DNA of 64,000 bases from positions 28,272,001 to 28,336,000 of the forward strand of contig OZ024756.1 in NCBI GenBank assembly GCA_964016885.1, in the 5' to 3' direction. Below the pieces are notes generated by a model. That model saw only the letters and a program-made list of their open reading frames with translations. It had not been told where the DNA came from and searched no databases. The position numbers and the translations under genes were made by a program. Within the stretch, counting starts at the first letter, position 1. Every line of letters begins with the position of its first letter. This document shows positions 43,676 to 46,833 of this stretch, piece after piece. Source of the stretch: Eledone cirrhosa (Eukaryota).

Positions 43676-45478
43676 ACCGTCAACAGCGGCGGGCGACTGA
43701 CGGTTCCGCGGGACATGGAGGGCCCCTGGCAGACAAGGTTTCCAACTATACTCCGATCCCCGCAGCGGCCGCCATGCCCGCGGAAGACGCTATAATCGAA
43801 TGCCGGGCGGAACTGAGTGATGGAGGGGAGCCCACCGCACATACAGAACACCCAGAGAATGGGGGGAGTGCCGTAGTAAACCAAAGGCCCAGCATTGGAA
43901 ATGAGCAATATAACGACTGAACATGCAACTGCAGAGCGGGCACACAATGCCCCCTGCAGGAAAGATGTCTAACGAAGGGCCTAGTATATAAATGTGTGGT
44001 TAACACGCACAACACCAAACGCACCTACATCGGCGCAACATCCACGACCTTTAAATCAAGAATGTATAATCACACAAACTCTTTCAAGGACCGGAGCAAG
44101 AGACACTCCACTAGGCTGGCGGACCTAATATGAGACTTGAAAGACAACGGCACCCCGTATGATCTCAACTGGAGTATCGTTCAACATGCAAATGCATATT
44201 CGGCTGGAAACAGGAAGTGTAGGCTATGCCTATCCGAGACCATGGAGATAGTTAGATTGGAGGATGATGCGGTCAACCTGAAATCGGAGATTATCATGAC
44301 GTGCAGACACCAGAGAAGGTGCACATTCTAGCTAAAGGCATGCGGGGAAGCGGACGCGGGTCCAAGGGATCAGACACCATACCTTGTTGACTATGTACGC
44401 CCTGTGGGGTAAGTCGCCGCAACCTGTGCGGCCTATTAGACTCTGCACGTCATCCTAGGCAACGAAATCGCATGAGCCGGGAATTTGAGACGGTGGCTCA
44501 ACCTCCACGGATATCCAGTCCCATACCATACATCAGTAAGGCAGTCTATCTCACCCACAGTGACATGCTCCATTATAGCCTGGTCATGCACTCCCTGCAT
44601 GTATATCTTTTCAGTGGTGTGTGCATATTCTCCACACACTCCATTATGTAACACCCCATGTATCTTTCCATGTACAAACCAATGTGTATCTTTGTATACT
44701 TTTCTTATATAATTCAGATATATGTATTTTTTATATATCCTGCATACATTTTCTATATTCGCTCTGGGTATACCCTTTACATTATTACCATGAACTCTCC
44801 ATATGTACCCTTGCTTGGGGTGTCTAAACGTGGATTAATCCACGTTGGCAACATAATAACAACTCTGTCAGCACGTACATCAAGGCGCATTTTTGCATGT
44901 ACAGCCCAATGTGCTTTTGTTATATGTATTTTTTGCATATTTTTTATGTGTGTGTAGATGTGTGAATATACATATATACATGTGTAAGAATATATGTGCG
45001 AGTGTGTGTGTGGGTAGGTGTGTATATATATATGTGTATGTATGTGTGTATATATACATATATGTGTGCAGATGTGTGTATGTATGTATATATATCTGTG
45101 CGTATATACACGCGCGCGTGGGAGTGTGAGCTGGCAAACAGCAGTAATTTTGCCGACGGGACAGTGAGCGAGTAACAGCTCAACCCCTGATGGTCAGCGG
45201 GCTGCTACCAGTGGTCAGAATAATGATGACGTCACTAACCAGTGACCAACCCAAGGACGCGCAAAGCGGATGAAGGTGGACGATATAGACCCGTAGGGTC
45301 AGAAACCCCAGAAAGAGGACATGCTCCGAAATCAATAGACGTGTCCGAGGAACCTGCGAGTCCAGAGTCAGGTCGATCCACACACGGATTGCACCTCGAG
45401 CTGTTCGCCGGGGAAACAATTGTAACACACAATAAATTGAGTTCCGATGCATCACTGATTTTTCTTTTTCGTTTTCCA
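43676..45478 (+). mobile_element. 5'-truncated Penelope-like retroelement (GIY-YIG endonuclease pseudo-ORF plus 3' region)
   Basis: frame 43921-44331: TCNCRAGTQCPLQERCLTKGLVYKCVV..RTYIGATSTTFKSRMYNH..KCRLCLSE..VNLKSEIIMTCRH; stops at 43918 and 44131; ends at (CT)n(TA)n. Confidence 0.85.
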
Positions 45479-45817
45479 TTCTCTCTCTCCCCCTCTCTCT
45501 CTCTCTCTCTCTCTCTCTCTATATATATATATATATATATATATATATATATATATATATATATATATATATATATATATAAATTAATAAAAACAATGAA
45601 ATAAAAACAAAGAACAAGTTCCTTATATTAAAAAATTCATCATTTTACGATCGTTTCTAGGATGTATATGTGTGTTGGTATGTATATCATACCAACACAC
45701 ACACACACACACACACATATATATATATATATACACACAATATATATATATACATATATCATAAATTATAGATAACAAGGAATCAGTAATGCATCAAAAC
45801 ACAATTTATTAACATAT

Positions 45818-45912
45818 TACAATATTACATATGTTTCTCCGACGATCTGCTCAAGGCGGGATCTGTTACAGATCGAACCCGACTCTGCATTCGCAAGTTC
45901 CTCAGATATGTC
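45818..45912 (-). ncRNA. Degenerate hammerhead motif
   Basis: ACATAT CTGAGGA ..(~60 nt, GATCTGT/ACAGATC hairpin).. GAAA CATATG TA^ ATATTGT. Confidence 0.45.
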
Positions 45913-46544
45913 TTGTGTATTCATTATTTATAATAATTGTGTCTACTTTAGGCACAAGGCCAGCAATTTCCCAGTACATTACTGGTACTTTATTTTTATC
46001 GACCCCGTAAGGATGAAAGGCAAAGTTAACCTCGGCGGGATTTGAACTCAGACTGTAAAGGGACGTAACTATGCTAGAAAGCATGGCGTCCAACTCTCTA
46101 CCGATACTGCCAATACTCTGATCTGCACGACCATCGAGTGCTCAAACGGCAAACCGCCTATGGATGCATTTAATTGCAGCCCTACAACATCTCTCTCTCT
46201 CTCTCTTTCTCTCTCCCTCTCTCTCTCTCTCTCTCTCTCTCTCTCTCTCTCTCTCTCTCTCTCTCTCTCTATATATATATATATATATATATATATATAT
46301 ATATATATATATATATATATATATATATAAATTAATAAAATATTGAATAAACAAAGAAACAGTTCCTTATATTAAAAAATTCATCATTTTACGATCGTTT
46401 CTAGGATATATATGTTAGTGTTGATATGCATATCCTATAGATCTATGTAAAATTTTTACAAACTATCAGAGGGAATATACATATATATATATATATATAT
46501 ATATATATATATATATATATATATATATATATATATATATATAT

Positions 46545-46833
46545 AAAACGAAAAATCAGTGATGTATCTGAACTCAATTTATTGTGTGTTACAATTGTTT
46601 CGCCGGCGGACAGCTCGAGACGCGATCATTGTGTGGATCTGTCTGATTCTGGACCCACAGCATATTCTTCCACTCAGTGGAAAAATATGCTCCGAAATCA
46701 TTAGGCGTGTCCGTCGAACCTGCGGGTCCAGAATCAGCCAGATCCACCCAATGATCACGTCACGAGCTGTCCGCCGGCGAAACAATTGTAACACAATAAA
46801 TTGAGTTCAGATGCATCACTGATTTTTCGTTTT
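46545..46833. mobile_element. Fold-back element made from the 3' end of the neighbouring Penelope-like element
   Basis: imperfect ~115-bp arms; ~46685-46833 aligns with ~45320-45475; flanked by TA repeats. Confidence 0.8.

What the first reader, a model, noticed from the sequence alone, without database searches (positions are those of the whole stretch)
43676..46833. Candidate parent element next to its fold-back derivative
A GIY-YIG pseudo-ORF (GLVY..YIG..R..H, LNxxxE-like VNLKSE) is followed by ~1.1 kb ending at a (CT)n(TA)n tract. Its last ~160 nt reappear, diverged, 1.1 kb away as a TA-flanked inverted repeat (46545-46833). Both end in the hammerhead 3' half GAAA-CAATTG-TA. This ties the fold-backs directly to a Penelope-like element. 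The CxCx5C linker (CNCRAGTQC) is, from memory, typical of the Naiad clade and needs confirming. I could not find a clean CUGANGA for this family.
Basis: partly seen in the sequence, partly recalled or inferred. Interest (0 to 1): 0.7.

Follow-up and report, generated by a model that had tools for sequence, protein, structure and literature searches.

The report
Penelope fold-backs stop at their promoter
The mirror-image repeat is one of many short insertions left by a Penelope-type jumping gene, a sister of the broken element beside it, and its arms stop at a fixed point that carries promoter motifs, so each copy is likely two short DNA copies that ran off the start of the element's RNA.

Summary
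43670-45482 is a 5'-truncated, broken copy of a dispersed Penelope-like family (A). Longer copies have the RT upstream of CxCx5C and a GIY-YIG without CCHH, plus DKT. These are Hydra-clade traits, not Naiad. The fold-back (46546-46910, with an overlooked 80-nt tail) comes from sister family B, which has its own RT/EN copies: 94% identity against 85% to the neighbour. Family A makes its own fold-backs. The missing ribozyme half is at 45341-45351 (CCGAGGA), separated from GAAA by a 60-nt covarying stem II; the core is mutated. Fold-backs are not a copied MITE: 62 distinct junctions in 65. The tail is on exactly one arm in 34 of 36, which this scan reported before on other DNA of this genome. New here: arms stop at a sharp 5' wall (30 of 54 stop within 10 nt). 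The wall is an initiator-like CA with Penelope's RGACGTGY promoter element at +28. An unrelated family shows a wall too, without that element. Best reading: two-ended priming at two RT start sites, with run-off at the transcription start. No RNA data were available.

The parts
43670..45482 (+). 5'-truncated, broken copy of PLE family A (end of ORF, 3' UTR, pLTR); no tail
   Evidence: 83.7-92% to the long copy L032; 867 candidates, 40 scored
43921..44331 (+). C-terminal endonuclease region; internal stop at 44131-44133, preceded by a stop at 43918-43920
   Evidence: 88-96% to 29 other loci
43924..43950 (+). CxCx5C linker (CNCRAGTQC)
   Evidence: Hydra-clade motif in PMC8557442 section 11
43978..44034 (+). 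GIY-YIG core with a single Cys (no CCHH finger)
45306..45344 (+). Predicted internal Pol II promoter of family A: +1 at 45310 (CCCCA), AGACGTGT at +28 (45337-45344)
   Evidence: family-A short copies stop here; RGACGTGY from PMC2377424
45341..45428 (+). Type I hammerhead: stem I 45341-44/45425-28, core CCGAGGA 45345-51 (U4C), long stem II 45352-45412, GAAA 45413-16, stem III with palindromic loop, predicted cut after 45424
45480..45581 (.). (CT)n(TA)n target-side microsatellite
45768..45913 (-). Older relative (subfamily D) arm with canonical CTGAGGA core; its likely tail is at 46113-46169 (+), beyond a SINE-like repeat at about 45930-46115
   Evidence: 69% to A
46475..46545 (.). (TA)n tract left of the fold-back
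46546..46660 (-). Fold-back short arm (family B, about 115 nt, no tail)
   Evidence: 97.4% to ORF-linked B end L104, 86.1% to adjacent A
46660..46674 (-). Inverted copy of the first 15 nt of the long arm (snap-back hairpin at the centre)
   Evidence: sequence, fold; seen before 12 of 38 wall-starting pieces
46675..46833 (+). Fold-back long arm (family B), starting at the wall (predicted +1 = 46676); core CCGTCGA at 46711-46717
   Evidence: 94.4% to L104, 84.6% to adjacent A
46834..46910 (+). PLE tail (about 80 nt): the sequence between pLTR and ORF start in long copies

Best explanation
The fold-back is one insertion of a Hydra-type Penelope-like family (B), sister to the truncated neighbour (A), and it likely arose when both cut strands of a TA repeat primed reverse transcription at two start sites on the element's RNA and the short copies ran off at its predicted transcription start. 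Steps: (1) shown: A and B encode RT plus a C-terminal GIY-YIG and end in TA-type repeats. (2) Inferred: an internal Inr/DPE-like promoter 160 nt before the pLTR end starts an RNA reading unit-tail-ORF-3'UTR-pLTR. (3) Shown: copies have two outer end points, +4 to +9 and +76 to +82, one of each per fold-back. Inferred from the Anolis PLE in vitro: these are two internal RT start sites served by a dimer that cuts both strands. (4) Inferred: at the 5' pLTR-tail junction only 160 or 240 nt of template lie upstream, so the cDNAs are run-off products joined head to head, sometimes with a snap-back piece. (5) Shown: the unit holds a hammerhead with a conserved, extended stem II but a mutated core. 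Inferred: self-cleavage is weak or lost and is not needed for spread. Adjacency to A likely reflects the shared target.
For: Wall: in the 88 loci behind the first 100 listed of 1187 B-type ends, 30 of 54 that reach -153 stop by -162 (0.56); the other 15 ten-base bins are 0-0.12. Family A: 8 of 14 stop at the homologous place (counted by eye). AGACGTGT lies at +28 from CCCCA in B and in the window's A copy and matches the RGACGTGY promoter element of D. virilis Penelope (PMC2377424, passages). Several copies begin with CAGTG or AGTG, so the RNA includes the AG and the wall is not a splice acceptor. Unrelated family E: 12 of 18 short loci stop at -210 to -217, at TTCATA. Tail on one arm: 34 of 36 in B (17/17, both 0, none 2; p about 1e-8), 10 of 11 in A, 9 of 10 in E. 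62 distinct junctions in 65 fold-backs; the two arms share 61 variant cells against 10.4 +/- 3.9 when shuffled, 0 of 1000 shuffles. Anolis PLE cuts and extends both strands, starts at two sites that bracket the tail, is predicted to be a dimer, and does not need ribozyme cleavage (PMC11167929, parts 1-2 of 4). B-type ends are linked to RT or EN in L101, L102, L104, L029 and L030.
Against: No RNA start was measured. Family E has a wall but no DPE at +28, plus a minor second wall at -229 to -233 in 3 of 18. Subfamily C reads GCATG at +28. Half of the RGACGTGY match is also hammerhead stem I, so it is conserved for another reason. Among tailed arms the junction haplotype C..C is in 17 of 34 short and 0 of 6 long, so some short copies come from templates that rarely give long products, as short masters would. 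Arms disagree at polymorphic sites in part of the fold-backs (-58: both 8, discordant 6). 34 of the 69 short loci stop before the wall and 33 have no inverted arm. One E fold-back has tails on both arms. All samples are exact-match ends, mostly from contig C1, so they lean to young copies.
Confidence: 0.62

Rival explanations
1. Short non-autonomous masters: solo unit-plus-tail copies are transcribed from the same internal promoter and copied in trans by the PLE protein, like a SINE or a monomeric retrozyme. The wall is still an RNA 5' end, but the template is not the coding RNA.
For: A tailed short copy carries the whole predicted promoter. The C..C junction haplotype is in 17 of 34 short and 0 of 6 long tailed arms. 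G at -58 is in 9 short and 0 long copies (p 0.54 for that column). Animal retrozymes are argued to be PLE derivatives (10.64898/2026.07.22.740005; part 1 of 5 and passages).
Against: A and B each have fold-backs with their own alleles and a homologous wall. 12 of the 14 columns listed show no long/short difference below p 0.01. Short copies end at the tail end and lack the sequence 3' of it, which the Anolis protein needed (first 172 nt of the ORF) and where a weak hairpin folds in 3 of 3 A junctions.
Confidence: 0.18
2. Single priming with self-priming: one cDNA folds back on itself, the second arm is copied from the first, and the endonuclease trims one end, leaving the tail on one side (the idea in PMC3846280 and PMC8557442).
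For: Arms share variants far above chance. Snap-back pieces precede 12 of 38 wall pieces. Palindromic junctions were read this way in Adineta (passages).
Against: The tailed arm is the shorter one in several cases (L119, L131, L136, L171), and the arms are discordant at non-CpG polymorphic sites (6 of 14 at -58, 6 of 22 at 0). The Anolis protein extends both strands in vitro.
Confidence: 0.12
3. The wall is an RT stall or an RNA processing site, not a transcription start.
For: No DPE in family E; no RNA data.
Against: In E the nearby hairpin lies 3' of the wall and is copied through (by eye). All three walls have a CA at +1. There is no shared upstream exon or leader. The hammerhead cut site is about 115 nt 3' of the wall.
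Confidence: 0.06
4. The fold-back is a MITE (DNA transposon) and the PLE captured half of it.
For: About 290 bp, long inverted repeats, TA flanks, 2470 candidates.
Against: 62 different centres in 65 copies; a one-sided tail equal to the ORF leader; a covarying RNA structure; 33 of 69 short loci have one arm only.
Confidence: 0.02

Closest known systems
Hydra clade of C-terminal EN+ Penelope-like elements, including Hydra-1_Obim (Craig et al. 2021, PMC8557442; sections 3, 6, 11, 15, passages and supplement parts read)
   Same: RT then CxCx5C then GIY-YIG without CCHH; DKT; CxxC and CxH around E and N; (TA)n targets; pLTR hammerhead, where a mismatch at 10.1-11.1 is also common in the paper's File S2. 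By eye the RT N-terminus follows Hydra-1_Obim motif for motif.
   Different: RWR instead of RWK; repeat unit 4.0-4.6 kb instead of under 3 kb, with long low-complexity inserts; tail about 80 nt instead of 30-40; stem II about 60 nt; core U4C (A) or U4C+A6U (B). Hydra-1_Obim has a different ribozyme sequence, so this is another family.
Poseidon of Anolis carolinensis, PAc (Frangieh et al. 2024, PMC11167929; parts 1-2 of 4 read)
   Same: Two internal RT start sites bracketing the tail; AT-rich targets; both strands extended; ribozyme cleavage dispensable.
   Different: Penelope/Poseidon clade; start sites lie inside the ORF. The parts read do not describe fixed-5'-end fold-back insertions.
Penelope of Drosophila virilis internal promoter (Schostak et al. 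2008, PMC2377424; passages read)
   Same: TATA-less internal promoter in the pLTR with RGACGTGY downstream of the start.
   Different: Here the element overlaps hammerhead stem I, no intron was sought or seen, and the start is inferred from insertion ends, not mapped.
Naiad clade (PMC8557442)
   Same: GIY-YIG, (TA)n targets, inverted 5'-truncated arm and one-sided tail.
   Different: Naiad has an N-terminal EN, CX2-5CxxC, CCHH, DKA and no canonical hammerhead; none of these fits.
Animal non-LTR retrozymes (10.64898/2026.07.22.740005; part 1 of 5 and passages read)
   Same: Short non-coding hammerhead units related to PLE pLTRs.
   Different: Retrozymes are tandem arrays with active ribozymes. 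Here no array of three or more units was seen in 88 loci, the core is mutated, and the ends do not lie at the cut site.

Membership tests
Penelope-like elements (EN+) | RT and GIY-YIG in one ORF | tested here: met
   Across frameshifts in L031-L034 and L036; same order in the 769-aa relative P0001, RT 42% and EN 33% identical
Penelope-like elements (EN+) | pLTR partial tandem, inverted 5'-truncated arm, one-sided tail | tested here: met
   L032 has inverted arm, pLTR, ORF, pLTR; L033 has direct pLTRs; L038 and L039 have inverted arms
Hydra clade | C-terminal EN | tested here: met
Hydra clade | CxCX5C linker | tested here: met
   CNCRAGTQC
Hydra clade | CCHH absent from EN; CxxC and CxH around E and N | tested here: met
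   one Cys between GLVY and YIG; CRLC..SE and NLKSE..CRH
Hydra clade | DKT instead of DKG | tested here: met
   PSDKTGN in L032 and L101
Hydra clade | RWK motif | tested here: inconclusive
   RWR in L032, L036 and L040: a conservative change
Hydra clade | (TA)n insertion preference | tested here: met
   outer ends run into TA-type repeats in most loci printed; judged by eye, not counted
Hydra clade | Canonical hammerhead in the pLTR | tested here: not met
   A: CCGAGGA 27 of 44, CTGAGGA 10 of 44; B: CCGTCGA 95 of 141 (both counts include loci fetched by core patterns). Canonical in subfamilies C and D
Hydra clade | Generally under 3 kb | tested here: not met
   pLTR end to pLTR end is 4.0 kb (L033) and 4.6 kb (L032). 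A descriptive trait; for these two misses the family is called Hydra-type, not filed as a member
Hydra clade | RT phylogeny groups with Hydra; no IFD | not tested
   published reference proteins were seen in the supplement but were not available to the alignment and tree tools
Naiad | N-terminal EN | tested here: not met
   RT lies upstream
Naiad | CX2-5CxxC, CCHH and DKA | tested here: not met
MITE | Copied as one unit with a fixed interior | tested here: not met
   62 junction signatures in 65
Type I hammerhead ribozyme | Three stems in the right order around the core | tested here: met
   95.7% of cells paired against 25-46% when slid; 4 pairs with two-sided changes, all in stem II and reflecting only three subfamilies. 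Rfam gave no hammerhead hit at E up to 10 in 40000-50000
Type I hammerhead ribozyme | Self-cleavage | not testable with these tools
   U4C lowers activity in vitro and A6 changes give low activity (PMC3088659, passages)
Non-LTR retrozyme | Tandem array with an intact ribozyme in each unit | tested here: not met
Inr/DPE core promoter | Initiator at +1 and DPE at +28 | tested here: met
   Motif and spacing in A and B; not in E or C. RGACGTGY is; the +28 spacing and initiator consensus are recalled. Activity untested

The most novel reading that the evidence does not exclude
The short fold-backs are a genomic record of PLE 'strong-stop' DNA. RT starts at two fixed sites behind the 5' pLTR of the element's own mRNA and runs off at the cap, so insertion ends map PLE transcription starts without RNA. 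Full-length and tandem copies could arise when such a cDNA jumps to the second pLTR copy on the RNA, an LTR-like strand transfer inside a target-primed reaction. The ribozyme has turned into a non-cleaving fold whose stem I doubles as the promoter element.
Probability: 0.3. Interest if true: 0.75.

Novelty: new variant of a known kind. Interest (0 to 1): 0.5.

Why it matters
How PLEs, the closest relatives of telomerase RT, make inverted and tandem insertions with a one-sided tail is an open question (PMC8557442, section 15). These families give countable, independent insertion products that predict a transcription start to within a few bases, two RT start sites used once each per insertion, and a dispensable ribozyme. 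Each prediction can be tested by 5'-end mapping or in the existing in vitro system. In practice, many MITE-looking palindromes in this genome (about 3000 B-type ends: 1187 exact matches divided by an exact-match rate of 16 of 40) should be annotated as PLE stubs.

Tried and rejected
Rfam scan of 40000-50000: 74 weak hits, none a hammerhead and none at its gathering score. Pfam on RT fragments and on P0001: no family at the thresholds used; PDB sequence search: 3 chance hits, E at least 0.12. Protein search for longer relatives: 1 hit among 2203 candidates, unnamed. Sequencing runs: no RNA holder listed. Laying three contig sets on the fold-back gave no piece spanning it and is not informative. 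Unconstrained RNAalifold recovered 12 pairs of extended stem II but not stems I and III; the full hammerhead fold was the minimum-energy fold only for the canonical C copy. The count of pairs with two-sided change did not exceed shuffles (220 of 500), although cells and covariation score did (0 of 500). A splice acceptor at the wall was rejected because copies include the AG and share no upstream exon. A suspected A/B chimera at C1:147.26 Mb was two separate short insertions 3.3 kb apart. The family-A copy number could not be estimated well: 155 exact ends, exact-match rate 1 of 18. Adjacency was not tested against a genome-wide null; 6 of 88 B-anchored loci hold another relative nearby. One search counts 19 long loci, while searches use 20 (L168 moved by eye). 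Literature: 0 papers for Penelope with strong-stop, strand transfer and pseudo-LTR (3 of 4 terms). Searches listed no description of fixed-5'-end PLE fold-backs in titles or abstract openings, but most subscription papers are not searched. Supplements of the bioRxiv preprint and of the Anolis paper were not seen and may bear on novelty.

Full report
Observation. The endonuclease frame has stops before the linker and inside the domain. The 3' end matches the right arm of the fold-back at 84.6% over 149 nt. The window lies at G000:C17:28272001-28336000 in a 3.0-Gb genome.

The element. A DNA search with 43676-44950 found 867 candidates, scored 40 and fetched 30 loci. Of the 29 other loci, 20 hold at least 100 nt of 45320-45478 downstream in the same orientation, and two more do with wider flanks, so that end belongs to the element. 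Most copies share sequence upstream of 43670, so the window copy is 5'-truncated. Of 10 widened loci, five were translated. L032, L033 and L036 show pLTR end, about 105 nt of leader, and then a broken ORF with RWR, DKT, the RT core (YRDD), a long low-complexity insert, the thumb end, CxCx5C and GIY-YIG; L031 and L034 show the later part. Craig 2021 assigns CxCX5C, DKT, loss of CCHH and (TA)n targets to the Hydra clade, and an N-terminal EN to Naiad. A different octopus family, Hydra-1_Obim, is already listed there. Length and ribozyme core miss the published description and no tree could be made, so I call the family Hydra-type.

The fold-back. It belongs to a dispersed set (2470 candidates). 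In 29 distinct top hits one arm began at a fixed place and the centre varied; most had on one side a sequence identical to the ORF leader, the PLE tail. In the window the tail is 46834-46910. Diagnostic patterns showed two sister families: B with core CCGTCGA (461 exact 29-mers; 1187 exact 3'-end 33-mers) and A with CCGAGGA (155 exact 38-mers); reversed-pattern controls were 0. B has its own RT or EN copies at 82-85% nucleotide identity to A. The window arms are 94.4% and 97.4% identical to an ORF-linked B end and 84.6% and 86.1% to the neighbour. A makes its own fold-backs: 11 of 27 distinct loci. The neighbour is therefore a sister of the parent. A third, older relative (D) lies between them, and 6 of 88 B loci have another relative close by, which fits a shared TA target.

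Anatomy of an unselected sample. I took all 88 loci behind the first 100 listed B-type ends (contig C1). 69 are short and 19 long. Of the short ones 36 are fold-backs, with the tail on one arm in 34 (17 and 17), on both in 0 and on neither in 2; independent arms would give 18 (p 9e-9). A gives 10 of 11 and unrelated family E gives 9 of 10, with one double-tailed. Pooled with the earlier hits, 65 fold-backs have 62 distinct junctions, arms differ by 5%, and arms share variants six times more often than shuffled pairs but disagree at some polymorphic sites. Each fold-back was thus built at insertion, usually from one source. The scan's earlier notes on other DNA of this genome report the same one-long, one-short rule; I read them, and they are not independent support.

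The wall. Stopping frequency per 10 nt is 0-0.12 except at -153 to -162, where 30 of 54 loci stop. Family A stops at the homologous place (8 of 14). The sequence there is CCCCA(+1)G, and AGACGTGT begins at +28 in both families. That 8-mer is the RGACGTGY element of the Penelope internal promoter; the +28 spacing rule is recalled. Family E (3315 exact ends; 24 distinct loci examined) has a wall at TTCA in 12 of 18 short loci but no such element, and subfamily C has an imperfect one. The wall is thus general in the three families sampled and the DPE is not. No RNA start could be measured.

The ribozyme. The 5' half is GTGT-CCGAGGA at 45341-45351; GTGT pairs with ACAC after the predicted cut. Between core and GAAA lies a 60-nt stem II. 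In 39 copies of A, B and C (16, 16 and 7, picked by hand from the 44, 141 and 11) 95.7% of cells pair, and four pairs change on both sides between subfamilies; these are few independent events. By eye D changes stems I and III on both sides. C and D have canonical cores (19 genome matches to a canonical-core pattern, one unrelated). A carries U4C and B adds A6U, changes reported to lower activity, yet B has many copies. This agrees with the Anolis result that cleavage is not needed.

Mechanism. Combining these counts with the Anolis biochemistry: a likely dimer nicks both strands of a TA repeat; one end primes at the pLTR end and the other at the tail end; at the 5' junction of the RNA the template ends 160 nt upstream, so run-off products join head to head. 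Long copies need a junction preceded by the 3' UTR, that is a tandem or read-through RNA or a strand transfer; I could not separate these. The main rival, short masters copied in trans, is favoured by a haplotype found only in short tailed arms and may account for part of the copies.

Verdict. A real feature of a known retroelement class with a wrong clade label and an indirect parent. The additions are the fixed 5' wall with promoter motifs and the extended, decayed hammerhead. Searches found no paper describing the wall (limits under Tried and rejected) and no earlier scan note naming it (0 findings; 8 of 360 shown). Interest 0.5.

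Noticed in passing
window 42380-43669 (-): A 5'-truncated LINE (Pfam RVT_1 E 1e-18, C-terminal PHD finger) abuts the PLE's truncated 5' end head to head at 43669/43670, the place where an inverted arm usually sits. It may be a foreign RNA used as the second template, or an independent insertion.
   Followed up: partly
window 46958-47354: Fold-back of unrelated family E with a canonical hammerhead and a tail of about 100 nt on the left arm; 3315 exact ends in the genome; a diverged relative at 31990-32200 (-).
   Followed up: partly
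window 45582-45680 and 46330-46420 (-): Two short copies of another end with GAAA-CGATCG-TA, each set against a (CT)n(TA)n tract; probably stubs of a further hammerhead family.
   Followed up: no
window 257-634, 9646-9956, 22065-22258, 48376-48614: Further fold-backs; 48376-48614 has GAAA-TGCGCA-TA on both arms and 257-634 has TA tracts on both sides.
   Followed up: no
window 45930-46115 and about 30 other places: A SINE-like repeat of about 180 nt, very common in the window; here it splits the D arm from its likely tail.
   Followed up: no
window 51940-52532: Four near-identical 150-nt units that by eye contain a tRNA-like sequence on the minus strand; not run through the tRNA finder.
   Followed up: no
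L036:2968-3190 (oriented): A subfamily-C stub with a TA tract sits directly before a 33-nt pLTR remnant and the ORF of a family-A copy.
   Followed up: partly
L215:2-1051, L103:2646-3659, L148:3-626: RT fragments of other, more distant Hydra-type families next to A or B ends, showing clustering of PLEs.
   Followed up: no
L093, upstream of the wall: A long B copy has a 13-nt tandem duplication spanning the wall, a possible template-jump scar; single case.
   Followed up: no
L035 and L036 ORF: Trinucleotide expansions giving long Thr runs just before the thumb-end motif.
   Followed up: no
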